Positions 31,356 to 49,128 of a DNA stretch of 64,000 bases are shown here, in pieces; position 1 is the first letter of the stretch, and every line of letters begins with the position of its first letter. The notes beneath the pieces were generated by a model, which had not been told where the DNA came from, searched no databases, and saw only the letters and a list, made by a program, of their open reading frames with translations. Made by a program: the position numbers and the translations under genes. Origin of the DNA: a virus. Location: positions 1 to 64,000 of IMG/VR virus record IMGVR_UViG_3300044960_000113. One strand, written 5' to 3'.

Positions 31356-32645
31356 TTATATATTAGATGTACTAGACATAGTAGCAAATGCTATTTCTGG
31401 ATCGTTTAGATATAACTCAGATGCTTTAACTTGTGTTACATCAGATGTTATTGTTCCATCAATCCCTGAATAATAATACATATTTGTCATATCAAATTCT
31501 ATATATACTCTTATATCTTTTCCATTTTCTATTTTACATTGAACCTTATAACCATTGTCTAATGGATTTCCACCAACATGCGCTTCAAAATATGTCTGAT
31601 ATGATGTAGTCATATTATAGAAACCCTGTACTCCAACACCCGACATTAATGAAGCTGTTGTATTACATGCAGAAATAGTAATAGTTCCAATTGATGCTAA
31701 AAGTGCATCATATGCTAAATTTATAGGATCTGGTGGTGGTGTAGGATTTAAATCTGGTGTGATTTGAATTCTTCCACCAGAATTAAAAAATGCTTTCATG
31801 TGATTAGCATTTGTAAATTGTATAAATACTTCATGATATTTTGTGGTTCCCCAAACACTTGTTGATTGATGGAATCCACCTGCATTACTTGATTCTAATG
31901 ATGTTGCTTGGAATCGTGTAGTAAATAAATCGTTAATATTAATTTGAGTATTATTGAATTCATTTAATAATGTTGTAATACCACATTGAATATTTGAAGT
32001 ATGATCATAAATAAATCCACGCGTACTTATATTTGCACTACTTACTCCTTGATGGTTTGCAATATTTCTAAATTTATTTAATAAATTTATCCAATCTAAA
32101 TTTGTCATTGATGTTAGATGTGGTAAATTATTCTGACCATAACCAAATACTGTTGAACATCCAGAGCTTAGTGGTCCAGTTGGTGTTCCAGCTATTTGAT
32201 TATATAAATCAACTAATGAATTATATTCTTCTAAATATGCAACTGCAACAAAATTACTACTAACCTTTTTCCATGCTGATCCATCCCATACCCACATTAT
32301 TTCATCATCACTATCCCACCATAAAAGTCCTGTTACAACATTTGTTGGTGCTGTTGGAGATACAACACAAATACCACCTATTGGCTTCCAAGTATTATTT
32401 GTGTCATAAATATATGGAACTCTGTCTCCAGTATTAAACCAAATTTGCCCGTGAGTTGGGTGTGGTGGTGGATTAGGAGAAGCAAAATTTTCTAGGATTT
32501 TAAGAATGCCTTCTTGTTGACCTTCACCATAATTTGGTGCACCTTTACCAAATAAAGTAATACTTGTTGATGTGGTATCAACTGCTAAAGGATTTAGTAT
32601 AATTGTACCTTTAACAATGTCTGACCAATTTAAAACGTATGCCAT
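31356..32645 (-). CDS. virion structural protein (tail fibre/baseplate-associated, jumbo-phage type)
   Basis: LFGKG..NYGE..Q...LENFAS..P..P..GQIWF motif; GLLWWD..MWVWDGSAW. Confidence 0.7.
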   Translation of the reverse strand: MAYVLNWSDIVKGTIILNPLAVDTTSTSITLFGKGAPNYGEGQQEGILKILENFASPNPPPHPTHGQIWFNTGDRVPYIYDTNNTWKPIGGICVVSPTAPTNVVTGLLWWDSDDEIMWVWDGSAWKKVSSNFVAVAYLEEYNSLVDLYNQIAGTPTGPLSSGCSTVFGYGQNNLPHLTSMTNLDWINLLNKFRNIANHQGVSSANISTRGFIYDHTSNIQCGITTLLNEFNNTQININDLFTTRFQATSLESSNAGGFHQSTSVWGTTKYHEVFIQFTNANHMKAFFNSGGRIQITPDLNPTPPPDPINLAYDALLASIGTITISACNTTASLMSGVGVQGFYNMTTSYQTYFEAHVGGNPLDNGYKVQCKIENGKDIRVYIEFDMTNMYYYSGIDGTITSDVTQVKASELYLNDPEIAFATMSSTSNI

Positions 32646-32737: not shown

Positions 32738-32745
32738 TATTTATA
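32738..32745 (-). promoter_or_regulatory. T4-type late promoter motif TATAAATA upstream of structural gene
   Basis: exact motif in intergenic gap. Confidence 0.4.
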
Positions 32746-33509: not shown

Positions 33510-33749
33510 TATTTTATTACCTCTCTGTTAAATTAACAGATAAACCCATTTTATTATAATATATTAACTTAATTTTGTTATTCCTCCTTTCTTTAATAGT
33601 GTTATGAACATATTTTAAATTATTTATAACCTGTCATAATTAATTAAAATTTCATAAAAATATTTTTATTAAAAATTAAATTAAATTTGATAAACAAATA
33701 TTTTTGATATCAATAAATGATTTATCTGGTTTTGATTCAAAATTGTTAT

Positions 33750-34607
33750 TTAGTTCCATTCCCAGATAAAACCTCCACCAACATTAATAAATGAATGATC
33801 TGGCTCTGATTTAAAATTATTATTAAAACAATAAAAACCACCACCAACTTCTCTTGGTGCACCTAGTAATGATGTTAATAGATTATTTGAACAATCAAAA
33901 TTACCACCTATTTCTTTTGGTGCACCTTTTAATGAAGTTAATTTATTACTATAACATGTAAAATTGTCACCTACTTCTCTTGGTGCACCTAGTAATGATG
34001 TTAATAGATTATTTGAACAATTAAAATTGCCACTCACTTCTTTTGGTCCACCTTCTAATGATGTTAATTTATTATCTGAACAATTAAAATCACCATCTAT
34101 CTCTTTTGGCGCACCTAGTAATGATGTTAATTTATTATTTGAACAATAAAAATCACCACTTACTTCCATTGGTGCACCTTGTAAAGATGTTAAATCATTA
34201 TATGAACAATTAAAATCATTATTTACTTCTCTTGGTGCACCTTTTAATGATTTTAATTGATTATCATGACAATCAAAATCACCACCAACATATTTTGGCG
34301 CACCTTCTAATGATTTTAAAATATTAAATGAACAATCAAAATTACCACCCACTTCTCTTGGTGCACCTAGTAATGATTTTAATTGACTAAGTGAACAATT
34401 AAAATTACCATCTACTTCACCAAATTGAACTGGTATATATTCTAATTTTTTATTAGAAATATCAACATCTCCATTAACATCAACTATACCATTATCATGA
34501 ATTGTATAATTTTTAATATACATTTCTTTTAACCAATTCTCTATTTCTTGTTTATCGGTTAAAAATTTATGTTGTTCTTCTTTTAAAAATAATTCTTGTA
34601 GTTTCAT
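33750..34607 (-). CDS. LRR-like repeat protein, 9 repeats
   Basis: MKLQELFLKEE N-cap, 21-aa repeats, FKSEPDHSF C-cap. Confidence 0.9.
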   Translation of the reverse strand: MKLQELFLKEEQHKFLTDKQEIENWLKEMYIKNYTIHDNGIVDVNGDVDISNKKLEYIPVQFGEVDGNFNCSLSQLKSLLGAPREVGGNFDCSFNILKSLEGAPKYVGGDFDCHDNQLKSLKGAPREVNNDFNCSYNDLTSLQGAPMEVSGDFYCSNNKLTSLLGAPKEIDGDFNCSDNKLTSLEGGPKEVSGNFNCSNNLLTSLLGAPREVGDNFTCYSNKLTSLKGAPKEIGGNFDCSNNLLTSLLGAPREVGGGFYCFNNNFKSEPDHSFINVGGGFIWEWN

Positions 34608-35137
34608 TTCCAGATAAATTCTCCACCAATATTAATAAATGAATGATTTGGTTCTGATTTAAAATTGTTATTTTTACAAATAAAATTACGACCTACTTCT
34701 TTTGGTGCACCTTGTAATGATGTTAATTGATTATCTGAACAATTAAAATAACCACCCACTTCTCTTGGTCCACCTTGTAAAGATATTAATTGATTATCTG
34801 AACAATCAAAATTACCACCTACTTCTTTTGGTGCACCTTGCAATGATGTTAATTTATTACCATGACAATAAAAACCATCACGAACTGCTCTAGGCGCACC
34901 TTGCAATGATATTAATTGATTATGTGAACATGAAAAATAACCATCTACTTCACCAAATTGAACTCGTAGATATGTTAATCTTTTATTAGAAATACCAACA
35001 TTACCATTAACATCAACTATACCATTATCATGAATAATATAATTTTCAATATATAATTTATTTAACCAATTCTCTATTTCTTGTTTATTAGTTAAGAATT
35101 GTTGTTCTTCTTTTAAAAATAGTTCTTGTAGTTTCAT
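34604..35137 (-). CDS. LRR-like repeat protein, 4 repeats
   Basis: start reassigned to ATG 35137 (ATGA overlap, MKLQEL). Confidence 0.9.
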   Translation of the reverse strand: MKLQELFLKEEQQFLTNKQEIENWLNKLYIENYIIHDNGIVDVNGNVGISNKRLTYLRVQFGEVDGYFSCSHNQLISLQGAPRAVRDGFYCHGNKLTSLQGAPKEVGGNFDCSDNQLISLQGGPREVGGYFNCSDNQLTSLQGAPKEVGRNFICKNNNFKSEPNHSFINIGGEFIWK

Positions 35138-35922
35138 TTCCAAATAAATTTTCCGTTAATATCAATAAATGAATGATCTGGTTCTGATTTAAAATTGTTA
35201 TATTTACAAAAAAAATTACCACCTACTTCTTTTGGTGCACCTTCTAATGATGTTAATTTATTATTTGAACAATCAAAAAAACTACCAACATATATTGGTG
35301 CACCTTTTAATGATGTTAATTTATTATGCGAACAATGAAAACCACCACTAACTTCTCTTGGTCCACCGTGTAATGTTATTAATTCATTATTATTACACAT
35401 GAAATCTCCACCTACTTCTCTTGGTGCGCCTTCTAGTGATGTTAATTTATTTATATGACAATCAAAATTACCACCTACTTCTTTTGGCGCACCTAGTAAT
35501 GATGTTAATAGATTATTAAAACAATAAAAACCAATGTTAATTTCTCTTGGTGCACCTTGTAATGATATTAATTGATTATATGAACAATCAAAAACACCAT
35601 CAACTTCTATTGGTCCACCTTCTAATGATTTTAATTGATTATTATAACACTCAAAATTACCACCTACTTTTCTTGGCGATCCTTTTAATGATGTTAATTT
35701 ATTAAATGAACAATTAAAATAACCATTCACATTACCAAATTGAACTGGTATATATGTTAATTTTTTAAAATGAATATCAACATCTCCATTAACATCAACT
35801 ATACCATTATCATGAATGTTATAGTTTTTAATTTTCATTTTTTTTAACCAATTTTCTATTTCTTGTTTATTGGTTAATAATTTATGTTCTTCTTCTTTTA
35901 AAAATAATTCTTGTAGTTTCAT
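35134..35922 (-). CDS. LRR-like repeat protein, 8 repeats
   Basis: family architecture. Confidence 0.9.
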   Translation of the reverse strand: MKLQELFLKEEEHKLLTNKQEIENWLKKMKIKNYNIHDNGIVDVNGDVDIHFKKLTYIPVQFGNVNGYFNCSFNKLTSLKGSPRKVGGNFECYNNQLKSLEGGPIEVDGVFDCSYNQLISLQGAPREINIGFYCFNNLLTSLLGAPKEVGGNFDCHINKLTSLEGAPREVGGDFMCNNNELITLHGGPREVSGGFHCSHNKLTSLKGAPIYVGSFFDCSNNKLTSLEGAPKEVGGNFFCKYNNFKSEPDHSFIDINGKFIWK

Positions 35923-36833
35923 TTCCAGATAAATTCTCCACTAATATCAATAAATGAATGATCAGGTTCTGATTTAAAATTGTTATATGAACAATTAAAA
36001 TCACCACCCACTTCTTTTGGTGCACCTTCTAATGATACCAATTTATTGCCATAACAATAAAAATTATTACCAACATATTTTGGTCCACCTTTTAATGATG
36101 TTAATTTATTATAATAACAGATAAAATTATCACTTACTTCTCTTGGTGCACCTTCTAATGTTGTTAATTTATTATATGAACAATCAAAAAAGCCACCAAC
36201 TTCTTTTGGTCCACCCTGTAATGATGTTAATTGATTATGTGAACATATAAAATCACTATCTATTTCTCTTGGTGCACCGCGTAATGATGTTAATTGATTA
36301 TATGAACAATTAAAAACACCATCAATTTCTATTGGTCCACCTTCTAATGATTTTAATTGATTATTATAACAATCAAAATTACCACCTACTTTTATTGGCG
36401 ACCCTTTTAATGATGTTAATTTATTAAATGAACAATCAAAATTACCATTTATTTCTCTTGGTGCATCCTGTAATGTTGTTAATTTATTATCTGAACAATT
36501 AAAATTACCACTTACTTCTCTTGGTGCACCTTGTAATGATGTTAATTGATTATTTGAACAATAAAAATCATCACCTACTTCCTTTGGTCCACCTTTTAAT
36601 GACGTTAATTGATTATATGAACAATCAAAAACACCATCTACTTCACCAAATTGAACTGGTATATATTCTAATTTTTTATTAGAAATATTAACATCACCAT
36701 TAACATCAACGATACCATTATCATGAATGGTATAATTTTCATTAATGTTCATCTTTTTTAACCAATTCTCTATTTCTTGTTTATCGGTTAAGAATTGTTG
36801 TTCTTCTTTTAAAAATAGTTCTTGTAGTTTCAT
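35919..36833 (-). CDS. LRR-like repeat protein, 10 repeats
   Basis: family architecture. Confidence 0.9.
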   Translation of the reverse strand: MKLQELFLKEEQQFLTDKQEIENWLKKMNINENYTIHDNGIVDVNGDVNISNKKLEYIPVQFGEVDGVFDCSYNQLTSLKGGPKEVGDDFYCSNNQLTSLQGAPREVSGNFNCSDNKLTTLQDAPREINGNFDCSFNKLTSLKGSPIKVGGNFDCYNNQLKSLEGGPIEIDGVFNCSYNQLTSLRGAPREIDSDFICSHNQLTSLQGGPKEVGGFFDCSYNKLTTLEGAPREVSDNFICYYNKLTSLKGGPKYVGNNFYCYGNKLVSLEGAPKEVGGDFNCSYNNFKSEPDHSFIDISGEFIWK

Positions 36834-37492
36834 TTCCAGATAAAATCTCCCCCAATATTAATAAATGAATGATCAGGTTCTGATTTAAAATTGTTATGTG
36901 AACAATCAAAATCACAACCCACTTCTCTTGGTGCATCTTTTAATGATATCAATTTATTGCTATAACAATAAAAATTACTACCAATATATTTTGGTCCACC
37001 TTGTAATGATGTTAATTGATTATCTGTACAATCAAAAAAACTACCAACATATATTGGTGCACCTTTTAATGATGTTAATTTATTATGCGAACAACGAAAA
37101 CCACCACTAACTTCTCTTGGTCCACCATGTAATGTTATTAATTCATTATTATTACACATGAAATCTCCACCTACTTCTCTTGGTGCGCCTTCTAGTGATG
37201 TTAATTTATTATTAAAACAATAAAAACTAATATTAATTTCTCTTGGTGTACCTTTTAATGATGTTAATTGATTATATGAACAATCAAAAACACCATCTAC
37301 TTCACCAAATTGGACTGGTATATGTGTTAAATTTCTATTAGAAATATTAACATCTCCATTAACATCAACTATACCATTATCATGTATGGTATAATTTTCA
37401 ATTTCCATTTCTTTTAACCAATTCTCAATATCTGATTTATTGGTTAAAAATTTATGTTGTTCTTCTTTTAAAAATAGTTCTTGTAGTTTCAT
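36830..37492 (-). CDS. LRR-like repeat protein, 6 repeats
   Basis: 70-aa N-cap + 6x21 + 24-aa C-cap = 220 aa. Confidence 0.9.
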   Translation of the reverse strand: MKLQELFLKEEQHKFLTNKSDIENWLKEMEIENYTIHDNGIVDVNGDVNISNRNLTHIPVQFGEVDGVFDCSYNQLTSLKGTPREINISFYCFNNKLTSLEGAPREVGGDFMCNNNELITLHGGPREVSGGFRCSHNKLTSLKGAPIYVGSFFDCTDNQLTSLQGGPKYIGSNFYCYSNKLISLKDAPREVGCDFDCSHNNFKSEPDHSFINIGGDFIWK

Positions 37493-38340
37493 TTCCAGAT
37501 AAATTCTCCACCAATATTAATAAATGAATGGTCTGGTTCTGATTTAAAATTGTTATACATACAATAAAAATCACCACCTACTTCTTTTGGTGCACCTTTT
37601 AATGATGTTAATTTATTATTTGAACAATAAAAATCACGACCTACTTCCCTTGGTGCACCTTCTAATGATGTTAATTGATTATCTGAACAATCAAACGTGT
37701 TAGCTACTTCTATTGGTGAACCGTGTAATGATGTTAATTTATTGTTATTACAATAAAAACCACCACCTACTTCCCTTGGTGCACCTTGTAATGATTTTAA
37801 TTGATTATTATGACAATCAAAATAACCATCTACTTCTCTTGGTCCATCTTGTAATGATATTAATTTATTACTATAACAATAAAAATTGCCATTTATTTCT
37901 CTTGGTGCACCTTTCAATGATGTTAATTTATTATTTGAACAATAAAAATCACCACCTACTTCTCTTGGTGCACCTTGTAATAATGTTAATTGATTATCTG
38001 AACAATCAAAATTACCACCTATTTCTCTTGGTGCACTTTCTAATGATGTTAATTTATTGTTATTACAATAAAAACCACCACCTACTTCCCTTGGTGCACC
38101 ATGTAATGATGTTAATTTATTATTTGAGCAACCAAAATTACCATCTACTTCACCAAATTGGATTGGTATATATGTTAATTCTTTAAAAGAAATATTAACA
38201 TCACCATTAACATCAACTATACCATTATCATGAATTGTATAATTTTTAATATACATTTCTTTTAACCAATTCTCTATTTCTTGTTTATCGGTTAAAAATT
38301 TATGTTGTTCTTCTTTTAAAAATAGTTCTTGTAGTTTCAT
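37489..38340 (-). CDS. LRR-like repeat protein, 9 repeats
   Basis: family architecture. Confidence 0.9.
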   Translation of the reverse strand: MKLQELFLKEEQHKFLTDKQEIENWLKEMYIKNYTIHDNGIVDVNGDVNISFKELTYIPIQFGEVDGNFGCSNNKLTSLHGAPREVGGGFYCNNNKLTSLESAPREIGGNFDCSDNQLTLLQGAPREVGGDFYCSNNKLTSLKGAPREINGNFYCYSNKLISLQDGPREVDGYFDCHNNQLKSLQGAPREVGGGFYCNNNKLTSLHGSPIEVANTFDCSDNQLTSLEGAPREVGRDFYCSNNKLTSLKGAPKEVGGDFYCMYNNFKSEPDHSFINIGGEFIWK

Positions 38341-38999
38341 TTCCAGGTAAATTCTCCACCAATATTAATAAATGAATGATCTGGTTCTGATTTAAAATTG
38401 TTATTTTTACAAATAAAATCACGACCTACTTCCATTGGTCCACCTTCTAATGATGTTAATTGATTATTTGAACAATTAAAATAACCACCAACTTTTCTTG
38501 GTCCACCTTCTAATGATGTTAATTGATTATTTGAACAATTAAAATAACCACCAACTTCTCTTGGTCCACCATGTAATGATGTTAATTGATTACGTGAACA
38601 ATAAAAATCACCACCTACTTCTCTTGGTCCACCTTGTAAAGATGTTAATTGATTATCTGAACAATTAAAATAACCACCTACTTCTCTTGGTGCACCTTCT
38701 AATGATGTTAATTTATTGTTATTACAATAAAAACCACCACCTACTTCCCTTGGTGTACCTTTTAATGATGTTAATTGATTATATGAACAATCAAAAATAC
38801 CATCTACTTCACCAAATTGAACTGGTATATATTCTAATTTTTTATTAGAAATATCAACATCTCCATTAACATCAACGATACCATTATCATGAATGGTATA
38901 ATTTTCAATTTCCATTTCTTTTAACCAATTCTCAATATCTGATTTATTGGTTAAAAATTTATGTTGTTCTTCTTTTAAAAATAGTTCTTGTAATTTCAT
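38337..38999 (-). CDS. LRR-like repeat protein, 6 repeats
   Basis: family architecture. Confidence 0.9.
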   Translation of the reverse strand: MKLQELFLKEEQHKFLTNKSDIENWLKEMEIENYTIHDNGIVDVNGDVDISNKKLEYIPVQFGEVDGIFDCSYNQLTSLKGTPREVGGGFYCNNNKLTSLEGAPREVGGYFNCSDNQLTSLQGGPREVGGDFYCSRNQLTSLHGGPREVGGYFNCSNNQLTSLEGGPRKVGGYFNCSNNQLTSLEGGPMEVGRDFICKNNNFKSEPDHSFINIGGEFTWK

Positions 39000-39529
39000 T
39001 TCCAGATAAATTCTCCACCAATATTAATAAATGAATAATCAGGTTCTGATTTAAAATTGTTATTTGAACAATCAAAATCACCACCCACTTCTTTTGGTGA
39101 TCCTTGTAATGATGTTAATTTATTACTATAACAATCAAAATTACCATTTATTTCTCTTGGTGCACCCCGTAATGTTGTTAATTTATTATCTGAACAATCA
39201 AAATTACGACCTACTTCTCTTGGTGCGCCTTGTAAAGATGTTAAATCATTAAATGAACAACTAAAAGTACCACCCACTTCACTTGGCCCACCTTTTAATG
39301 ATGTTAAATTATTATATGAACAGTCAAAATTACCATCTACTTCACCAAATTGAACTGGTATATATGTTAATTTTTTAAAAGAAATATTAACATTACCATT
39401 AACATCAACAATACCATTATCATGAATGGTATAATTTTTAATGTTCATCTTTTTTAACCAATTTTCTATTTCTTGTTTATCTGTTAAGAATTGTTGTTCT
39501 TCTTTTAAAAATAGTTCTTGTAGTTTCAT
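38996..39529 (-). CDS. LRR-like repeat protein, 4 repeats
   Basis: family architecture. Confidence 0.9.
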   Translation of the reverse strand: MKLQELFLKEEQQFLTDKQEIENWLKKMNIKNYTIHDNGIVDVNGNVNISFKKLTYIPVQFGEVDGNFDCSYNNLTSLKGGPSEVGGTFSCSFNDLTSLQGAPREVGRNFDCSDNKLTTLRGAPREINGNFDCYSNKLTSLQGSPKEVGGDFDCSNNNFKSEPDYSFINIGGEFIWK

Positions 39530-40566
39530 TTCCAGATAAAACCTCCCCCAATATTAATAAATGAATGATCAGGTTGTGATTTAAAATTGTTATTTTTACA
39601 AATAAAATCACGACCTACTTCCCTTGGTGCACCATATAATGATGTTAATTGATTATGTGCACAATCAAAATAACCACCAACTTCTCTTGGTCCACCTTCT
39701 AATGATGTTAATTTATTATTTGAACAATTAAAATCACCACCTATTTCTTTTGGTGCACCGTGTAATGATGTTAATTGATTATGATAACAATAAAAACCAT
39801 CACCTACTTCCATTGGCGCACCTTCTAATGATATTAATTTATTACTATAACAATAAAAATTGCCATTTATTTCTCTTGGTGCACCTTTCAATGATGTTAA
39901 TTTATTATTTGAACAATAAAAATCACGACCTACTTCCCTTGGTGCACTTTGTAAAGATGTTAAATAATTATATGAACAATCAAACGTGTTAGCTACTTCT
40001 ATTGGTGAACCGTGTAATGATGTTAATTTATTGTTATTACAATAAAAACCACCACCTACTTCTCTTGGTGCACCTTGTAATGATTTTAATTGATTATTAT
40101 GACAATCAAAATAACCACCTACTTCTTTTGGTCCACCTTCTAATGATGTTAATTGATTACGCGAACAAATAAAATAGCCACCTACTTCCCTTGGTGCACC
40201 TTGTAACGATTTTAATTGGTTATTATGACAATCAAACGTGTTAGCTACTTCTATTGGTGCACCTTCTAATGATGTTAATTTATTGTTATTACAATAAAAA
40301 CCTCCACCTACTTCCCTTGGCGCACCATGTAATGATGTTAATTTATTATCTGAGCAACTAAAATTGCCATCTACTTCACCAAATTGGACTGGTATATATG
40401 TTAATTTTTTAAAAGAAATATTAACATCACCATTAACATCAACAATACCATTATCATGAATAGTATAATTTTTAATGTTCATCTGTTTTAACCAATTCTC
40501 AATATCTGATTTATCGGTTAAAAATTTATGTTGTTCTTCTTTTAAAAATAGTTCTTGTAGTTTCAT
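39526..40566 (-). CDS. LRR-like repeat protein, 12 repeats
   Basis: family architecture. Confidence 0.9.
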   Translation of the reverse strand: MKLQELFLKEEQHKFLTDKSDIENWLKQMNIKNYTIHDNGIVDVNGDVNISFKKLTYIPVQFGEVDGNFSCSDNKLTSLHGAPREVGGGFYCNNNKLTSLEGAPIEVANTFDCHNNQLKSLQGAPREVGGYFICSRNQLTSLEGGPKEVGGYFDCHNNQLKSLQGAPREVGGGFYCNNNKLTSLHGSPIEVANTFDCSYNYLTSLQSAPREVGRDFYCSNNKLTSLKGAPREINGNFYCYSNKLISLEGAPMEVGDGFYCYHNQLTSLHGAPKEIGGDFNCSNNKLTSLEGGPREVGGYFDCAHNQLTSLYGAPREVGRDFICKNNNFKSQPDHSFINIGGGFIWK

Positions 40567-41411
40567 TTCCAGGTAAATTCTCCACCAATATTAATAAATG
40601 AATGATTTGGTTCTGATTTAAAATTGTTATTTTTACAAATAAAATTATGACCTACTTCTTTTGGTGCACCTTGTAATGATGTTAATTGATTATCTGAACA
40701 ATAAAAACTACCACCAACTTCTCTTGGTGCACCATATAATGATGTTAATTGATTATTTGAACAATTAAAATAACCACCAACTTCTCTTGGTCCACCATGT
40801 AATGATGTTAATTGATTACGTGAACAATAAAAATCACCACCTACTTCCCTTGGTCCACCTTGTAAAGATGTTAATTGATTACGTGAACAATAAAAATCAC
40901 CACCTACTTCCCTTGGTCCACCTTGTAAAGATGTTAATTGATTATCTGAACAATCAAAATTACCACCTACTTCTTTTGGTGCACCTTCTAATGATGTTAA
41001 ATCATTATATGAACAATTAAAATCACCATTTATTTCTATTGGTCCACCTTGTAATGATGTTAATTTATTAAACGAACAATCAAAATTACCACCTACTTCT
41101 TTTGGTGCACCTTCTAATGATGTTAATTTATTACCATGACAATAAAAACTATCACGAACTGCTCTAGGCGCACCTTGCAATGATATTAATTGATTATGTG
41201 AACATGAAAAATAACCATCTATTTCACCAAATTGAACTCGTAGATATGTTAATCTTTTATTAGAAATACCAACATTACCATTAACATCAACTATACCATT
41301 ATCATGAATTGTATAATTTTTAATATACATTTCTTTTAACCAATTCTCAATATCTGATTTATCGGTTAAGAATTGTTGTTCTTCTTTTAAAAATAATTCT
41401 TGTAGTTTCAT
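40563..41411 (-). CDS. LRR-like repeat protein, 9 repeats
   Basis: family architecture; contains an exact 63-bp tandem duplication. Confidence 0.9.
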   Translation of the reverse strand: MKLQELFLKEEQQFLTDKSDIENWLKEMYIKNYTIHDNGIVDVNGNVGISNKRLTYLRVQFGEIDGYFSCSHNQLISLQGAPRAVRDSFYCHGNKLTSLEGAPKEVGGNFDCSFNKLTSLQGGPIEINGDFNCSYNDLTSLEGAPKEVGGNFDCSDNQLTSLQGGPREVGGDFYCSRNQLTSLQGGPREVGGDFYCSRNQLTSLHGGPREVGGYFNCSNNQLTSLYGAPREVGGSFYCSDNQLTSLQGAPKEVGHNFICKNNNFKSEPNHSFINIGGEFTWK

Positions 41412-42130
41412 TTCCAGATAAATTCTCCACCAATATTAATAAATGAATGGTCTGGTTCTGATTTAAAATTGTTATTTTTACAAATAAAATCATGACCTAC
41501 TTCTCTTGGTGCACCATATAATGACGTTAATTGATTATCTGAACAATAAAAACCACCAACTTCTTTTGGTCCACCTTCTAATGATGTTAATTGATTATTT
41601 GAACAATTAAAATAACCACCAACTTTTTTTGGTCCACCTTGTAATGATATTAATTTATTACTATAACAATAAAAATTGCCATTTATTTCTCTTGGTGCAC
41701 CTTGTAATGATGTTAATTGATTACGTGAACAATTAAAATAACCACCCACTTCTCTTGGTGCATTCTGTAATGATGTTAATTGATTATCTGAACAATCAAA
41801 ATTACCACCTACTTCTTTTGGTGTACCTTGTAATGATGTTAATTTATTACCATGACAATAAAAACCATCACGAACTGCTCTAGGTGCACCTTGCAATGAT
41901 ATTAATTGATTATGTGAACATGAAAAATAACCATCTACTTCACCAAATTGAACTGGTATATATGTTAATCTTTTATTAGAAATATTAACATTACCATTAA
42001 CATCAACAATACCATTATCATGAATAGTATAATTTTTAATGTTCATCTTTTTTAACCAATTCTCAATATCTGATTTATTGGTTAAAAATTTATGTTGTTC
42101 TTCTTTTAAAAATAGTTCTTGTAGTTTCAT
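41408..42130 (-). CDS. LRR-like repeat protein, 7 repeats (one with a 1-aa deletion)
   Basis: family architecture; EVGGFYC lacks one residue. Confidence 0.9.
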   Translation of the reverse strand: MKLQELFLKEEQHKFLTNKSDIENWLKKMNIKNYTIHDNGIVDVNGNVNISNKRLTYIPVQFGEVDGYFSCSHNQLISLQGAPRAVRDGFYCHGNKLTSLQGTPKEVGGNFDCSDNQLTSLQNAPREVGGYFNCSRNQLTSLQGAPREINGNFYCYSNKLISLQGGPKKVGGYFNCSNNQLTSLEGGPKEVGGFYCSDNQLTSLYGAPREVGHDFICKNNNFKSEPDHSFINIGGEFIWK

Positions 42131-42723
42131 TCCCAGATAAATTCTCCACCAATATTAATAAATGAATGGTCTGGTTCTGATTTAAAATTGTTATTTTTAC
42201 AAATAAAATCACGACCTACTTCTCTTGGTGCATCTTTCAATGATGTTAATTTATTATTTGAACAATTAAAATAACCACCTACTTCTCTTGGTCCACCTTG
42301 TAATGATATTAATTTATTACTATAACAATAAAAATTGCCATTTATTTCTCTTGGTGCACCTTGTAATGATGTTAATTGATTACGTGAACAATTAAAATAA
42401 CCACCCACTTCTCTTGGTCCACCTTCTAATGATTTTAATTGATTATGATAACAATCAAAATTACCACCCACTTCTCTAGGTGCACCTAGTAATGATTTTA
42501 ATTGACTAAGTGAACAATCAAAAAAACCATCTACTTCACCGAATTGAACTGGTATATATGTTAATCTTTTATTAGAAATATTAACATCACCATTAACATC
42601 AACTATACCATTATCATGAATGGTATAATTTTTAATGTTCATCGGTTTTAACCAATTCTCAATATCTGATTTATCGGTTAAGAATTGTTGTTCTTCTTTT
42701 AAAAATAGTTCTTGTAGTTTCAT
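42127..42723 (-). CDS. LRR-like repeat protein, 5 repeats (first of main array)
   Basis: family architecture. Confidence 0.9.
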   Translation of the reverse strand: MKLQELFLKEEQQFLTDKSDIENWLKPMNIKNYTIHDNGIVDVNGDVNISNKRLTYIPVQFGEVDGFFDCSLSQLKSLLGAPREVGGNFDCYHNQLKSLEGGPREVGGYFNCSRNQLTSLQGAPREINGNFYCYSNKLISLQGGPREVGGYFNCSNNKLTSLKDAPREVGRDFICKNNNFKSEPDHSFINIGGEFIWE

Positions 42724-42724
42724 T

Positions 42725-43087
42725 TTAATCTTGTTTTCTTAAAACATATTTAATCCATTCTAATGTATTCATTGAATGACATTGTTGAGGAGTGTCATAT
42801 AATTCAGCAGATGCCATTTGATTATATAACCATTCAGCTAAATTTACTTGATATGATGGATCTAAATCTCTAATAGTTTCAAAAATTTCTTTTGGTGCTG
42901 GATGTTCACGTAGATATCTAACTTTATCTGGTGTCTTATAACGTAACATTTCTACTAAGTTAGCCATTAACACAGTCTGAGCATTATCTGTTATTTTCCC
43001 AGATTTAATGACGTTTTTTAACATCATAAAAATTTCAATAGGAACAAGTCCTTCATTAAGTATTGGTTTAATTTCATTAAGTTTCAT
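42725..43087 (-). CDS. hypothetical protein with CTS-like leader, heads the LRR operon
   Basis: MKLNEIKPILNE|G N-terminus; AAGGA SD. Confidence 0.7.
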   Translation of the reverse strand: MKLNEIKPILNEGLVPIEIFMMLKNVIKSGKITDNAQTVLMANLVEMLRYKTPDKVRYLREHPAPKEIFETIRDLDPSYQVNLAEWLYNQMASAELYDTPQQCHSMNTLEWIKYVLRKQD

Positions 43088-43122
43088 AATAAATTTCCTT
43101 ATAAAATATATATTAAAATTGA

Positions 43123-43138
43123 TATAAATATATTTATA
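43123..43138. promoter_or_regulatory. back-to-back late-promoter motifs TATAAATA/TATTTATA between divergent genes
   Basis: perfect 16-bp palindrome between 43087(-) and 43168(+). Confidence 0.55.
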
Positions 43139-44045: not shown

Positions 44046-44819
44046 ATGAAAACTGGATTTAAAGAATTTTTAATTCTAGAATTAGATTATAATAATTTAG
44101 ATACTAAAATTGATTATCATAAAACACTAAATATTAAACTCTGGGATAATCCCGAAAAACCCAGTGATGCTAAACTTAAAAATGATGTAAAATATGCTTT
44201 AAATAATATAGCTAATGAGTTTATAGAATTTTTAGAAATTCCTAAACAAGATGTTAAAGATATTATTATAACTGGTTCTAATGCTAGTTTTAATTATGTA
44301 GAAGGTTTATCTGACATTGATTTACATATAATAGTTGATTTTTCAAAAAATAATATATGCACAGATTGTAAAACAGAGTTTGTTAATTCTTGTTTTCAAG
44401 CTAAAAAATCACTGTGGAATTCAACACATAATATAACAGTAAAAGATCAACCTGTAGAATTATATGTTCAAGATGCAAATGAACCACATATTGCATCTGG
44501 AGTATGGAGTTTAAAACAAGATAACTGGCTTATAGTACCACAATATGTTCATCCAACATATGATACGACAGCAGTTAAAATTAAAGCATCTGAAATTATG
44601 AATCAAATTGATGACTTAATTTCAAGTCAATCTGATGATATAACAAGTTTTGAAAAATTAAAAGAAAAAATACGTACGATGAGGAAGACTGGATTATATT
44701 CTGGTGGTGAATATTCAATAGAAAATTTAGTGTTTAAAACACTCAGAAATAATGGATATTTAGAAAAGCTCTCGTCCTATCTCATTAAGATCAAGGACAA
44801 GAGCTTAAGTTTAGATTAA
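44046..44819 (+). CDS. DNA pol beta-superfamily nucleotidyltransferase with CTS-like leader
   Basis: IITGSNASFNY...SDIDLH, PVELYVQD; N-terminus MKTGFKEFLILE. Confidence 0.8.
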   Translation: MKTGFKEFLILELDYNNLDTKIDYHKTLNIKLWDNPEKPSDAKLKNDVKYALNNIANEFIEFLEIPKQDVKDIIITGSNASFNYVEGLSDIDLHIIVDFSKNNICTDCKTEFVNSCFQAKKSLWNSTHNITVKDQPVELYVQDANEPHIASGVWSLKQDNWLIVPQYVHPTYDTTAVKIKASEIMNQIDDLISSQSDDITSFEKLKEKIRTMRKTGLYSGGEYSIENLVFKTLRNNGYLEKLSSYLIKIKDKSLSLD

Positions 44820-46782: not shown

Positions 46783-47388
46783 TCATTCCCAGATAAAACT
46801 TCCACCAATATTAATAAATGAATGGTCTGGTTCTGACTTAAAAAAATTGTTTGAACAGTTAAAATTGCCACTCACTTCTTTTGGCCCATCTTGTAACGAT
46901 GTCAGTTTATTATATGCACAATCAAAATCACCATTTATCTCTTTTGGCACACCTTGTAATGATGTTAATTGATTATTTGAACAATCAAAATCACCATGAA
47001 TTTCTTTTGGTGCACCTTGTAATGATGTTAATTGATTATGATAACAATAAAAACTACCACCAACTTCTCTTGGTCCGCCTTGTAATGATGTTAATTCATT
47101 AAATGAACAATCAAAATCACCACCAACTTCTTTTGGCGCACCTTGTAATGATGTTAATTTATTATTATCATAACAATCAAAATCACCATCTACTTCACCA
47201 AATTGAACTGGTATATGTGTCAAATTGTTATAAGAAATATAAACACTACCACTAACATCAACTACACCATTTTCATGAATGGTATAATTTTTAATTTTCA
47301 TTTCTTTTAACCAATTCTCAATATCTGATTTATCAGTCAAGAATTTATGTTGTTGTTCTTCTTTTAAAAATAGTTCTTGTAATTTCAT
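46783..47388 (-). CDS. LRR-like repeat protein, 5 repeats (second cluster)
   Basis: family architecture. Confidence 0.9.
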   Translation of the reverse strand: MKLQELFLKEEQQHKFLTDKSDIENWLKEMKIKNYTIHENGVVDVSGSVYISYNNLTHIPVQFGEVDGDFDCYDNNKLTSLQGAPKEVGGDFDCSFNELTSLQGGPREVGGSFYCYHNQLTSLQGAPKEIHGDFDCSNNQLTSLQGVPKEINGDFDCAYNKLTSLQDGPKEVSGNFNCSNNFFKSEPDHSFINIGGSFIWE

Positions 47389-48224
47389 TTCCAGATAAAA
47401 TCTCCACCAATATTAATAAATGAATGGTCTGGTTCTGATTTAAAATTATTACGTTTACAGTCAAAATTTCCACCAACTTCTCTTGGTGCATGTTTTAATG
47501 ATGTCAAATTATTATATGAACAAATAAAATCACCACCAACTTCTTCTGGACCACCTAATAATGATTCTAATTTATTTCCTGAGCAATTAAAAATATTACC
47601 AATTTTTTTTGGAGCTCCATTTAACGTTACTAAATCATTATTATAACAATTAAAATTGTTACCTACTTCTTTAGGTCCACCTTCTAATGTTGTTAAATTA
47701 TTATTGTAACAATTAAAACTACCATCTATTTTTAATGGTGATCCTTTTAATGATGTTAATTTGTTTCCATAACACGTAAAATTATTTCCAATTTCTTTTG
47801 GTCCATCTAATAATGATGTTAATTGATTATTTGAACAATCAAAACTACCACCTATTTCTATTGGTGCACCACGTAATGTTGTTAATTCATTATTTGAACA
47901 ATCAAAATATCCATTTATTTCTCTTGGTGCACCTTGTAATGACGTTAATCTATTATATGCACAATAAAAATCACCACCCACTTCTTTTGGTGATCCTCGT
48001 AATGATGTTAACATATTTTCGTAACAATAAAAATTTTCACTTATTGAACCAAATTGTACCGGTATATATGTTAAATTTTTATTAGAAATATCAACAATTC
48101 CATCTACATCAACTATACCATTATTATTAATAGTATAATTTTTTATTCTCATTTCTATTAACCAGTTCTCTATTTTATTTTTATCGGTTAAAAAATTATG
48201 TTCAAATAAGTCACTTAATTTCAT
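47385..48224 (-). CDS. LRR-like repeat protein, 9 repeats, most divergent copy
   Basis: MKLSDLFE leader; same repeats and C-cap. Confidence 0.9.
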   Translation of the reverse strand: MKLSDLFEHNFLTDKNKIENWLIEMRIKNYTINNNGIVDVDGIVDISNKNLTYIPVQFGSISENFYCYENMLTSLRGSPKEVGGDFYCAYNRLTSLQGAPREINGYFDCSNNELTTLRGAPIEIGGSFDCSNNQLTSLLDGPKEIGNNFTCYGNKLTSLKGSPLKIDGSFNCYNNNLTTLEGGPKEVGNNFNCYNNDLVTLNGAPKKIGNIFNCSGNKLESLLGGPEEVGGDFICSYNNLTSLKHAPREVGGNFDCKRNNFKSEPDHSFINIGGDFIWK

Positions 48225-48441: not shown

Positions 48442-49128
48442 TCATTTGTAAACAATATTTTTTTTAATTAATCTAAATACTGGTTGTATTATTGGTTGTT
48501 CTTTGATTTGTAAATTTTTGTCTGATAAATTAATATCTTCAATTATCATTATATCTTTTAATGGTTTATTATTAATTTTTTGTTGTATTTTTTTAGATTT
48601 ATTATCATTAAATGGTTTTAATTTATATGATTTTTTATTTTTAATTTTTTCTTCTTTAATAATATTATTATTAATAGATTTTTCAATATCCATTAATAAA
48701 GATTTAACTTCTTTTTTAATATTTTCTTCTACTTGTCTGACATCAATAGGTTTATTTTCTTCAGGTTTATTTTCTTCAGGTTTATTTTCTTCAGGTTTAT
48801 TTTCTTCAGGTTTATTTTCTTCAGGTTTATTTTCTGGTTTTGAGTCAAGTAAAGTAATTTCTCTATTATATGGGATAAATGTTCTACCATTAACAACAAT
48901 TTCTATAGAACACATTACTGGTGTTGAAATATATTGAAGTAAACCTGTTAATTGTGGAATTTCAGCAATCCATTCGTTTTCTGTTGTTCCTTTTTTTGCG
49001 GTAAAACATAATCTTTTCTCATCATTTCCAATAAAAACTCTAACTTTTGATGGGAGTGATGATGTCCCAATTATACCAACATCAAAAGTGATTAAATTAT
49101 TTTCATTTATGTTTAAAACTAAACTCAT
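48442..49128 (-). CDS. hypothetical protein with PEENK repeat linker
   Basis: beta-rich N-domain, (PEENK)5, basic C-terminus. Confidence 0.7.
   Translation of the reverse strand: MSLVLNINENNLITFDVGIIGTSSLPSKVRVFIGNDEKRLCFTAKKGTTENEWIAEIPQLTGLLQYISTPVMCSIEIVVNGRTFIPYNREITLLDSKPENKPEENKPEENKPEENKPEENKPEENKPIDVRQVEENIKKEVKSLLMDIEKSINNNIIKEEKIKNKKSYKLKPFNDNKSKKIQQKINNKPLKDIMIIEDINLSDKNLQIKEQPIIQPVFRLIKKNIVYK
48749..48835. repeat. 15-bp tandem repeat GGTTTATTTTCTTCA x5 plus partial copy
   Basis: directly visible. Confidence 0.95.

What the first reader, a model, noticed from the sequence alone, without database searches (positions are those of the whole stretch)
34604..42723. Repeat cassettes are shuffled between paralogues (mosaic assembly)
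The same distinctive repeat blocks recur in different genes at different positions. About 180 bp at 35269-35451 matches 37028-37210 with only two differences that I could see (NNELITLHGGPREVSGGF.CSHNKLTSLKGAPIYVGSFFDC). CSHNQLISLQGAPRAVRD.FYCHGNKL occurs in the genes at 34604, 40563 and 41408. CSLSQLKSLLGAPREVGGNFDC occurs in both the first and last main-array genes. GAPREINGNFYCYSNKLISL occurs in four genes, and GSPIEVANTFDC in two. N-cap alleles (EEQQF vs EEQHKF; TD vs TN; KQE vs KSD) also assort independently. This points to ongoing recombination or gene conversion generating combinatorial diversity, not simple serial duplication.
Basis: seen in the sequence. Interest (0 to 1): 0.8.

Follow-up and report, generated by a model that had tools for sequence, protein, structure and literature searches.

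The report
Recombining LRR gene array in phage
A large uncultured phage from a hot-spring microbial mat carries twelve back-to-back genes for small leucine-rich-repeat binding proteins that have repeatedly copied short stretches of DNA into one another, a familiar way of evolving for tandem repeat genes, seen here in a phage protein family of unknown function.

Summary
The 183-nt tract 37028-37210 equals 35269-35451 with 2 mismatches, three repeat units out of register. All quoted peptide blocks occur in the genes named. The three N-cap alleles occur in 7 of 8 possible combinations. The array is 12 co-oriented genes (33750-42723, minus strand) joined by ATGA overlaps. Each gene has a constant N-cap, 4-12 units of 63 nt (89 units, mean identity 79%) and a constant C-cap.

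No single gene tree fits:
- PHI p=0.0002.
- At least 7 recombination events in the 207-nt N-cap.
- 108 of 660 triplets give significant breakpoints.
- Distances in neighbouring 60-80-nt segments are uncorrelated.

Near-identical patches (90-240 nt, 98-99%) have background-level flanks, which indicates short-patch gene conversion. Older duplications span the gene junctions.

The proteins fold as short cysteine-ladder LRR solenoids with a variable concave face. I found no reverse transcriptase or invertase, and all copies are complete genes, so ordinary homologous recombination suffices; a RecA/UvsX-like recombinase is encoded.

"Ongoing" shuffling is not shown: no sister strain was found and no long reads were examined. 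This scan has already found arrays of this family in other huge phages. The process is known; the family's function is not.

The parts
42127..42723 (-). g01: LRR paralogue with 5 units, first gene of the array. Its start abuts the stop of the upstream 120-aa gene.
41408..42130 (-). g02: 7 units. The last unit (41492-41551) has lost one codon and is 20 aa long.
40563..41411 (-). g03: 9 units. Shares 236 nt (4 mismatches) and 140 nt (2 mismatches) with g11, eight genes away.
39526..40566 (-). g04: 12 units, the longest paralogue. Collinear with g07 at +1 unit, except for a 122-nt patch (39826-39947) that matches g07 at -4 units.
38996..39529 (-). g05: 4 units.
38337..38999 (-). g06: 6 units. This protein was folded: LRR solenoid, mean pLDDT 94, residues 1-10 disordered.
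37489..38340 (-). g07: 9 units. Its first 137 nt match g12 with 1 mismatch; further along, the nearest paralogue switches to g04, g06, g03, g04, g01, g04 and g10.
36830..37492 (-). g08: 6 units. Contains the 183-nt tract 37028-37210.
35919..36833 (-). g09: 10 units. Shares a two-unit block with g10 at a different position.
35134..35922 (-). g10: 8 units. Contains the 183-nt tract 35269-35451, which equals 37028-37210 with 2 mismatches.
34604..35137 (-). g11: 4 units. The true ATG is at 35137, which gives the same ATGA overlap as the other junctions.
33750..34607 (-). g12: 9 units, last gene of the array, with a slightly longer C-cap. It lies 240 nt upstream of phoH.
42725..43087 (-). Conserved 120-aa gene directly upstream of and abutting g01. 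In the related phage locus L012 its homologue lies directly before phoH, with no LRR genes between. A TATAAATA box lies at 43131-43138 on the minus strand.
46783..48224 (-). Two further, more diverged paralogues (46783-47388 and 47385-48224), also joined by an ATGA overlap, upstream of the RNA ligase gene.
38028..38791 (-). Junction-spanning segment (3' part of g06 plus 5' part of g07), 92.5% identical over 764 nt to 40254-41017 (g03/g04). This is the trace of an older unequal-crossover duplication.

Best explanation
What it is. The locus is a lineage-specific, tandem, translationally coupled array of genes for stand-alone 21-residue cysteine-ladder LRR proteins, which are probable protein binders. 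The array evolves by general homologous recombination between its own members.

Why recombination is harmless here. The repeat period is 63 nt, a multiple of three. Every unit has an almost invariant core (F2, C4, N7, L9, L12, P16, with nearly fixed codons). Every gene junction is an almost identical stretch of about 80 nt: C-cap, Shine-Dalgarno sequence, ATGA overlap and N-cap. Any misaligned pairing between two genes therefore stays in frame.

What the events do:
- Unequal crossovers duplicate or delete blocks that span junctions. Older traces of these are 91-93% identical over 460-764 nt.
- Short-patch gene conversion copies 90-240 nt, one to four units or part of a cap, from one gene into another, often out of register.

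The result is concerted evolution of scaffold and caps, together with reassortment of the hypervariable concave-face residues (unit positions 1, 3, 5, 6, 8 and 13) among genes.

Shown: the mosaic structure, the rejection of a single tree, the patch-like tracts, the LRR fold and the position of the variability.

Inferred:
- The enzyme. The phage's own RecA/UvsX-type recombinase and recombination-dependent replication are likely, but host RecA is possible.
- That selection favours the resulting variety.
- That the proteins bind host proteins.
For: Cassette map and unit statistics:
- 89 units have a mean identity of 79%.
- Of the 25 unit pairs with 3 or fewer mismatches, 12 sit at a different index counted from both ends, and only 1 pair lies within one gene.

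Tracts:
- g08/g10: 183 nt, 2 mismatches.
- g03/g11: 236 nt, 4 mismatches.
- g01/g02: 180 nt, 4 mismatches.
- g07/g12: 137 nt, 1 mismatch.
- g04/g07: 122 nt, 2 mismatches, at -4 units, while the rest of that pair is collinear at +1 unit.
- The internal tracts are flanked on both sides, and those that reach a gene end on their one free side, by 64-86% identity where the register holds; three flanks are shifted by a codon indel or lie at a gene end.

Recombination tests:
- Painting: the nearest paralogue switches every 60-200 nt.
- PHI: p=0.0002 for the N-cap and 0.005 for the C-cap; 68% of informative site pairs are incompatible.
- Minimum number of recombination events: 7 in the N-cap and 3 in the C-cap.
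- Max-chi-square: 108 of 660 triplets at p<=0.01; the top triplets give p=5e-5 to 3.5e-4, and 5e-5 is the permutation floor.
- Mantel r of about 0.1 between adjacent segments.

Substrate and enzymes:
- The junctions are nearly identical and carry GGTGGAG followed by ATGA.
- The longest self-matches span junctions.
- A RecA-family gene lies at 172323 of the record. No reverse transcriptase and no serine recombinase were found.

Protein:
- Variability sits on the x positions of xFxCxxNxL.
- AlphaFold2 gives mean pLDDT 94. The best fold matches are the SspH1, IpaH and YopM LRR domains and a hagfish VLR.
- The best sequence match in the PDB is internalin J, 3bz5, E=1.5e-17.

Generality and origin:
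- An independent phage array (L014) shows the same mosaicism, with 287 nt and 1 mismatch between its genes 4 and 8.
- The array is absent from the syntenic site of the related phage L012.
Against: - No population data: the timing and rate of exchange are unknown.
- Synonymous diversity is low everywhere (pS 0.03-0.56). This is probably caused by the 25% GC codon bias, so the pN/pS values above 1 at some positions are not a clean test of positive selection.
- The long-range order of the array rests on one metagenomic assembly. Logan's k=31 contigs break into pieces of 150-330 nt inside the array and cannot confirm the order.
- The function of the proteins is not shown by anything here.
Confidence: 0.8

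Rival explanations
1. Programmed, high-frequency combinatorial assembly. This would resemble lamprey VLR assembly or the cassette-based antigenic variation of vlsE, pilE/pilS and msp2: a dedicated mechanism rebuilds expressed genes from donor cassettes during each infection or generation.
For: The proteins share their fold class with the VLRs (a hagfish VLR is rank 3). Blocks are reused out of register in several genes. Variability is concentrated on the concave face.
Against: All 12 copies are complete genes with their own start, Shine-Dalgarno sequence and stop in one operon. There are no promoterless partial cassettes and no single expression site. No reverse transcriptase or serine recombinase is present in the 184 kb held. 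Tract lengths and positions look like ordinary conversion patches. Only about half of the genome is available, so absence of an enzyme is weak evidence.
Confidence: 0.05
2. Assembly artefact. The metagenome assembler took wrong paths through a repeat graph, or merged strains, and so produced chimeric genes.
For: Logan contigs fragment within the array. The two long flanking contigs (27.7 kb and 4.1 kb) stop at its edges. Some short contigs join distant array positions.
Against: The longest exact repeat inside the array is 131 nt, and only seven are 90 nt or longer, so 150-nt paired reads can resolve nearly all of it. All 12 reading frames and all 11 ATGA junctions are intact. In run X1, 230 of 318 contig pieces match the window at 99% or more, and all bins are covered. 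Wrong paths could reorder blocks but could not create the shared tracts. The odd joints can come from the other paralogues in the record (at least four), or from further ones in the unassembled part, since each paralogue is itself a mosaic of the same cassettes. An independent phage contig shows the same pattern.
Confidence: 0.06
3. Serial whole-gene duplication followed by point mutation and gain or loss of units, without exchange between paralogues.
For: Some gene pairs are largely collinear (g04/g07, g03/g06, g02/g03/g11). Junction-spanning duplications do exist.
Against: This was rejected by PHI, the minimum number of recombination events, max-chi-square and the Mantel tests. It is also contradicted by internal tracts of 98-99% identity with diverged flanks on both sides and by the g04/g07 patch at -4 units within a +1-unit collinear pair.
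Confidence: 0.02
4. Convergent selection. The same blocks arose independently because particular unit sequences are favoured.
For: Hypervariable positions use a restricted alphabet, mostly N, D, Y, S, H and G.
Against: Tracts cover up to three or four consecutive units and are identical at nearly all nucleotide positions, synonymous sites included (183 nt with 2 mismatches; 131 nt exact). Linked multi-nucleotide haplotypes in the N-cap reassort as blocks.
Confidence: 0.02

Closest known systems
Tandem LRR protein locus of Flavobacterium psychrophilum (Altae-Tran et al. 2020, QRB Discovery, PMC10392669; read)
   Same: Up to 19 tandem genes, each with 2-14 LRR units of about 22 residues. Hypervariable positions lie on one face, N- and C-terminal parts are conserved, and there are extensive signatures of recombination and modularity.
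   Different: That locus is bacterial and encodes secreted cell-surface proteins with a signal peptide and a T9SS signal. It is littered with broken gene fragments joined at 1-5-bp microhomologies, which points to illegitimate recombination, and it differs between sequenced strains. The phage array here has no fragments, all 12 genes are intact and overlap by ATGA, the exchanges look homologous, and no second strain is available.
Staphylococcus aureus lpl tandem paralogue cluster (Tsuru and Kobayashi 2008, PMC2568036)
   Same: Homologous recombination at conserved sequence inside each ORF shuffles the 5' and 3' parts of a gene, so their phylogenies are incongruent. The unit that spans the 3' end of one gene and the 5' end of the next tends to be kept. 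Here the longest self-matches span junctions, and C-cap(j) against N-cap(j+1) gives r=0.45, p=0.005 over the first 140 N-cap columns, but not over the first 80 or over the whole N-cap.
   Different: The lpl genes have one central conserved region and are not solenoid repeat proteins. Here every 63-nt unit is a potential crossover site, so exchange also happens out of register and changes the number of repeats.
Listeria internalin J (PDB 3bz5) and the short bacterial LRR domains of SspH1, IpaH and YopM
   Same: 21-residue repeat with a conserved cysteine in the LxxLxL ladder. Sequence match to 3bz5 at E=1.5e-17. Fold matches at TM 0.45-0.58. In the effectors, the LRR domain is the target-recognition module.
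   Different: There is no signal peptide, no LPXTG or Ig-like inter-repeat domain, and no E3 ligase (NEL) domain. These are stand-alone LRR proteins with their own N-cap and C-cap, and the nearest Atlas protein clusters are 98-100% viral.
Gene amplification and recombination in phage and virus arms races, for example the T4 tifA segmental amplification (Srikant et al. 2022, PMC9391042; abstract seen)
   Same: A large phage (T4 in the published case) uses recombination to rearrange and amplify an accessory gene that interacts with the host.
   Different: The T4 case is an experimentally evolved amplification of one gene. Here there is a standing array of diverged paralogues with mosaic exchange.
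Arrays of the same phage LRR family seen earlier in this scan (e1-5408115, e1-5408138, e1-5689773, e1-5807589)
   Same: Tandem arrays of 21-residue cysteine-ladder LRR genes in huge phages, with variable faces and mosaic identity patterns.
   Different: These are other genomes with other caps. Some of those reports had sister strains showing turnover, which is not available here. They are AI notes, not publications.

Membership tests
Leucine-rich repeat (LRR) superfamily | Tandem 20-30-residue units carrying the LxxLxLxxNxL core | tested here: met
   88 of 88 full units have F2, C4, L9, L12 and P16, and 86 of 88 have N7, at a period of 21 residues. Pfam LRR_4 scores 41.2 bits against a cut-off of 27 for the 346-aa paralogue.
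Leucine-rich repeat (LRR) superfamily | Curved solenoid fold with a parallel beta-sheet on the concave face | tested here: met
   AlphaFold2 model with mean pLDDT 94 and pTM 0.87. Foldseek probability is 1.00 to the SspH1, IpaH, YopM and VLR LRR domains. This is a predicted structure only.
Internalin family (InlJ type) | 21-residue cysteine-ladder LRR | tested here: met
   Invariant Cys at unit position 4. phmmer match to 3bz5 at E=1.5e-17 over 206 residues.
Internalin family (InlJ type) | Signal peptide, Ig-like inter-repeat domain and cell-wall anchor | tested here: not met
   The proteins are only N-cap, units and a 28-residue C-cap. The N-terminus MKLQELFLKEE is acidic and not hydrophobic. 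No other Pfam domain was found. No dedicated signal-peptide predictor was run.
VLR-type somatic assembly | Incomplete expressed gene plus banks of partial donor cassettes | tested here: not met
   All 12 copies are complete ORFs with Shine-Dalgarno sequence, ATG and stop in one co-oriented operon. There are no partial cassettes in or beside the array.
VLR-type somatic assembly | AID/APOBEC-like cytidine deaminase driving the assembly | not tested
   Not searched for. A phage dCMP deaminase would confound the result, and only about 52% of the genome is held.
Diversity-generating retroelement (DGR) | Reverse transcriptase with a template and variable repeat pair | tested here: not met
   No RVT_1 match in the 184-kb record. 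The variation is reassortment of blocks, not adenine-specific substitution. The record is incomplete.
Shufflon or invertase switching | Site-specific recombinase with inverted crossover sites | tested here: not met
   No serine recombinase was found. All genes and repeats are in direct orientation. Tyrosine recombinases were not searched for.
Gene conversion and unequal crossover in tandem paralogue clusters (lpl type, plant R-gene type) | Phylogenetic incongruence along the gene, and patchy identity with diverged flanks | tested here: met
Gene conversion and unequal crossover in tandem paralogue clusters (lpl type, plant R-gene type) | Differences in array content between strains | not testable with these tools
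   No relative with the same caps at 80% identity or more was found in IMG/VR or the JGI metagenomes. Only Logan contigs were laid, not raw or long reads.

The most novel reading that the evidence does not exclude
The array could be a phage-borne, population-level combinatorial library of LRR binders. On this reading the binders are loaded into the capsid through the invariant, disordered N-terminal leader (MKLQELFLKEE, which contains an LxE motif like the T4 capsid-targeting sequence) and are injected with the DNA to neutralise variable host defence proteins. Recombination in the array would be frequent enough that individual virions in one bloom carry different gene sets.

The hints are weak:
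- The leader is invariant, and residues 1-10 are predicted to be disordered.
- A TATAAATA box, like a T4 late promoter, lies upstream of the operon. The motif is not enriched in this AT-rich window.
- Unrelated genes at 136-142 kb of the record start with the same MK(L/V)xE(L/I)(F/L) signature.
- A ClpP-type protease whose best PHROG matches are head-maturation proteases lies 0.3 kb upstream of the operon.
- No gp21-like protease was found in the half-genome held.
Probability: 0.15. Interest if true: 0.8.

Novelty: new member of a known kind. Interest (0 to 1): 0.45.

Why it matters
The process, gene conversion and unequal crossover among tandem repeat genes, is textbook and by itself adds little.

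What deserves attention is the substrate. This is a family of stand-alone cysteine-ladder LRR proteins whose nearest Atlas clusters are 98-100% viral. It has thousands of metagenomic homologues, all labelled hypothetical (7705 hits among 8000 scored candidates). It forms expanded, fast-shuffling arrays in several unrelated large phages. I found no description of such phage arrays in five literature searches.

A standing, recombining repertoire of binders in a virus of bacteria would mirror the LRR-based recognition repertoires of plants, jawless fish and bacterial pathogens. If their targets turn out to be host defence or surface proteins, the arrays would be a new class of phage counter-defence or host-range determinant, and a natural source of compact designed-binder scaffolds.

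Tried and rejected
- Megablast of the whole array against 50,697 phage records gave no match.
- PADLOC gave no match for the LRR proteins or the upstream gene. PHROGs gave only families of unknown function.
- A search for a sister strain failed. An exact junction pattern in the JGI metagenome contigs gave 0 hits. An N-cap protein search there gave only relatives of 39-61% identity. IMG/VR gave four loci with other caps and one syntenic relative that lacks the array. Strain-to-strain turnover therefore could not be tested.
- Public runs: three distinct data sets from hot-spring and microbial-mat metagenomes hold the stretch. Only Logan contigs were available. They break into pieces of 150-330 nt within the array, so they neither confirm nor contradict the long-range order. 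The few contigs that join distant array positions have short sides (21-52 nt) and can come from other paralogues. I do not count them as evidence of population heterogeneity.
- A T4 gp21-type prohead protease (PF03420) was not found in the record, but the control genomes did not ring either and the record is about 52% complete, so this says nothing.
- The small palindrome CACCAAGAGAAGTTGGTG inside some units was flagged as terminator-like at 4 sites. It follows from the Ala-Pro...Val-Gly-Gly codons and is not kept in most units, so I dropped it as a recombination signal.
- The phase of the tract ends was not analysed, because ends are defined by mismatches and would be biased towards variable positions.
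It was repeated successfully later.

Full report
**Setting.** The window is the first 64 kb of a 184,280-bp linear IMG/VR virus record. CheckV estimates the record to be about 52% complete, so this is a jumbo-size phage. GC content is about 25%. Public runs holding the stretch are hot-spring and microbial-mat metagenomes. Around the locus lie phoH (PF02562), a ClpP protease (PF00574) and a T4 Rnl1-type RNA ligase.

**Anatomy.** Twelve co-oriented minus-strand genes fill 33750-42723 without gaps. I number them g01 (42127-42723) to g12 (33750-34607) in the direction of transcription.
- Every junction is an ATGA stop/start overlap preceded by GGTGGAG. About 80 nt around each junction are almost identical in all eleven junctions.
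- The gene listed at 34604-35143 really starts at the ATG at 35137.
- There are 89 units in all. One of them has lost a codon.
- More diverged paralogues lie at 46783-47388 and 47385-48224. A frameshifted one lies at 138956-139592 of the record, and one at 183680-184279 is cut by the contig end.

**Checking the observation.** Unit pairs differ on average at 13 of 63 nucleotides. Only 25 of 3916 pairs have 3 or fewer mismatches.
- All quoted peptide blocks are in the genes named.
- The three N-cap alleles occur in 7 of 8 combinations.

**Is it more than serial duplication?**
- A cassette map, built by single linkage at 4 or fewer mismatches, shows the same blocks at different positions.
- g04 and g07 are collinear at an offset of +1 unit over 242 nt. 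A 122-nt patch with 2 mismatches links them at -4 units.
- Of the 25 closest unit pairs, 12 sit at a different index counted from either end. Only one pair lies within a single gene, so intragenic slippage is not the source.
- Painting each gene with its nearest paralogue in 63-nt windows shows switches every 60-200 nt. For example, g07 goes g12, g04, g06, g03, g04, g01, g04, g10.

*Formal tests on the positionally homologous caps.*
- PHI: p=0.0002 for the N-cap and 0.005 for the C-cap. 68% of informative site pairs are incompatible.
- Hudson-Kaplan minimum number of events: 7 in 207 nt and 3 in 84 nt.
- Max-chi-square: 108 of 660 triplets reach p<=0.01, against about 7 expected by chance. The best 20,000-permutation p-values are 5e-5, the floor of the test.
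- Mantel correlations between paralogue distance matrices of adjacent 60-80-nt segments are about 0.1 and not significant. The one exception is the pair of directly abutting segments.

A single gene tree is therefore rejected.

**Kind of events.** The most similar tracts are 98-99% identical over 92-236 nt. Where a flank exists and stays in register, it shows background identity of 64-86%. This is the signature of short-patch conversion or closely spaced double crossovers. The longest, somewhat older similarities (460-764 nt at 90-93%) all span a gene junction, for example g06/g07 against g03/g04. This is what unequal crossover between misaligned genes would produce. It also recalls the junction-spanning evolutionary unit described for the S. 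aureus lpl cluster (PMC2568036). The linkage of a C-cap with the following N-cap is modest (r=0.45, p=0.005) and holds for only one of the three N-cap spans tested.

**Why it works without a dedicated machine.** The 63-nt period keeps any unit-to-unit misalignment in frame. The unit cores use almost fixed codons: TTT 86/88, TGT 86/88, TTA 86/88 and CCA 84/88. Together with the near-identical junctions, they provide abundant homology.
- The record encodes a RecA/UvsX-family protein.
- No reverse transcriptase and no serine recombinase were found. The record is only about half of the genome.
- All copies are complete, translationally coupled genes. There is no silent-cassette and expression-site layout.

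**The proteins.** Variability is concentrated at unit positions 1, 3, 6 and 13, and to a lesser degree at 5 and 8. F2, C4, L9, L12 and P16 are invariant.
- Positions 1, 3, 5, 6 and 8 are the x positions of xFxCxxNxL, the concave beta-face of an LRR.
- pN exceeds pS several-fold at some of these positions, but pS is depressed by the AT bias, so I do not claim positive selection.
- AlphaFold2 gives a confident solenoid (mean pLDDT 94). Only residues 1-10 are disordered.
- Foldseek finds the short bacterial LRR domains of SspH1, IpaH and YopM and a hagfish VLR.
- The best sequence match in the PDB is internalin J, the 21-residue cysteine-ladder LRR, at E=1.5e-17.
- There is no other domain.

The family is very large: 7705 hits among 8000 scored candidates, all labelled hypothetical. 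The nearest Atlas clusters are 98-100% viral. Single copies sit among early or replication genes in smaller phages and in Vibrio phage SRILMA.

**Origin of the array.** A related phage (L012, PhoH 71% identical) keeps the order RNA ligase, ClpP, 120-aa gene, phoH, fibre-like gene. It has nothing between the 120-aa gene and phoH. The twelve genes are therefore a lineage-specific expansion at that site. Independent arrays of the same repeat type, with other caps, occur in other IMG/VR phages (L014 with eight genes, L016 with five). L014 shows the same mosaicism, with 287 nt and 1 mismatch between its genes 4 and 8 while other parts of gene 8 match gene 3.

**Assembly caveat.** Logan's k=31 contigs fragment inside the array, and the two long flanking contigs stop at its edges. 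Long-range order therefore rests on the original assembly. The longest exact repeat is 131 nt and only seven are 90 nt or longer. All frames and junctions are intact. Wrong graph paths cannot create the shared tracts. I put the artefact reading at about 6%.

**Comparison with what is known.** The nearest published analogues are:
- the F. psychrophilum tandem LRR locus (PMC10392669), which differs in being bacterial, surface-exposed and full of gene fragments joined at microhomologies;
- the S. aureus lpl cluster (PMC2568036).

Five literature searches found no description of LRR arrays in phages. The Goslar preprint mentions LRR or beta-helix domains only as appendages of DUF7941 virion proteins. 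This scan has already reported arrays of the same family in other huge phages. I checked two of the leads those notes gave, InlJ as the closest solved relative and the Altae-Tran paper, and both hold here.

**Verdict.** The mechanism is most likely ordinary homologous recombination and gene conversion. The process is known. The protein family and its function remain the interesting open part.

Noticed in passing
L012:6305-6901: The related phage that lacks the LRR array carries a different repeat protein near its RNA ligase gene: 198 aa with about six copies of an (E/Q)GEAAIAKD... helical repeat. In the window, the corresponding region upstream of the RNA ligase holds two LRR paralogues.
   Followed up: no
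G000:C1:138956-139592 (outside the window): A paralogue broken by a frameshift inside a repeat unit. The N-cap and four units read in one frame, and the last units and the C-cap read in another. It is either a pseudogene or a sequencing error.
   Followed up: partly
G000:C1:136613-142678 (outside the window): Four genes with no LRR repeats visible in the N-terminal 60 residues read, on the same strand, start with MKVSELFE, MKVSEIFE, MKVSELLN and MKLKELLKE. This is the same N-terminal signature as the LRR paralogues (MKLQELFLKEE). It could be a shared leader or targeting peptide, or chance: about 3 matches are expected genome-wide, but these are clustered.
   Followed up: partly
window 43131-43138 (minus strand): A TATAAATA box, the T4 late-promoter consensus, lies 44 nt upstream of the ATG of the 120-aa gene that heads the LRR operon. 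Similar boxes precede phoH (33621-33628) and the gene at 31356-32645 (32738-32745). The motif is not enriched overall in this AT-rich window (30 found, 31 expected).
   Followed up: partly
window 41492-41551: The last unit of the gene at 41408-42130 has lost one codon (20 residues, GGFYC instead of GGxFYC) but stays in frame.
   Followed up: yes
window 48442-49128 (minus strand): A 228-aa protein with seven tandem PEENK pentapeptides, just upstream of the two outlying LRR paralogues. It has no Pfam match.
   Followed up: no
window 33600-43100 (reads laid): In run X1, 88 of 318 Logan contig pieces match the array at only 90-99%, at depths similar to the main sequence. They probably come from further paralogues in the unassembled half of the genome, or from co-occurring strains.
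   Followed up: partly
window 44046-44819 (plus strand): A 257-aa protein of PHROG 36119 (unknown function) with a weak PADLOC match to oligonucleotide cyclases (E about 0.002). It may be a nucleotidyltransferase.
   Followed up: no
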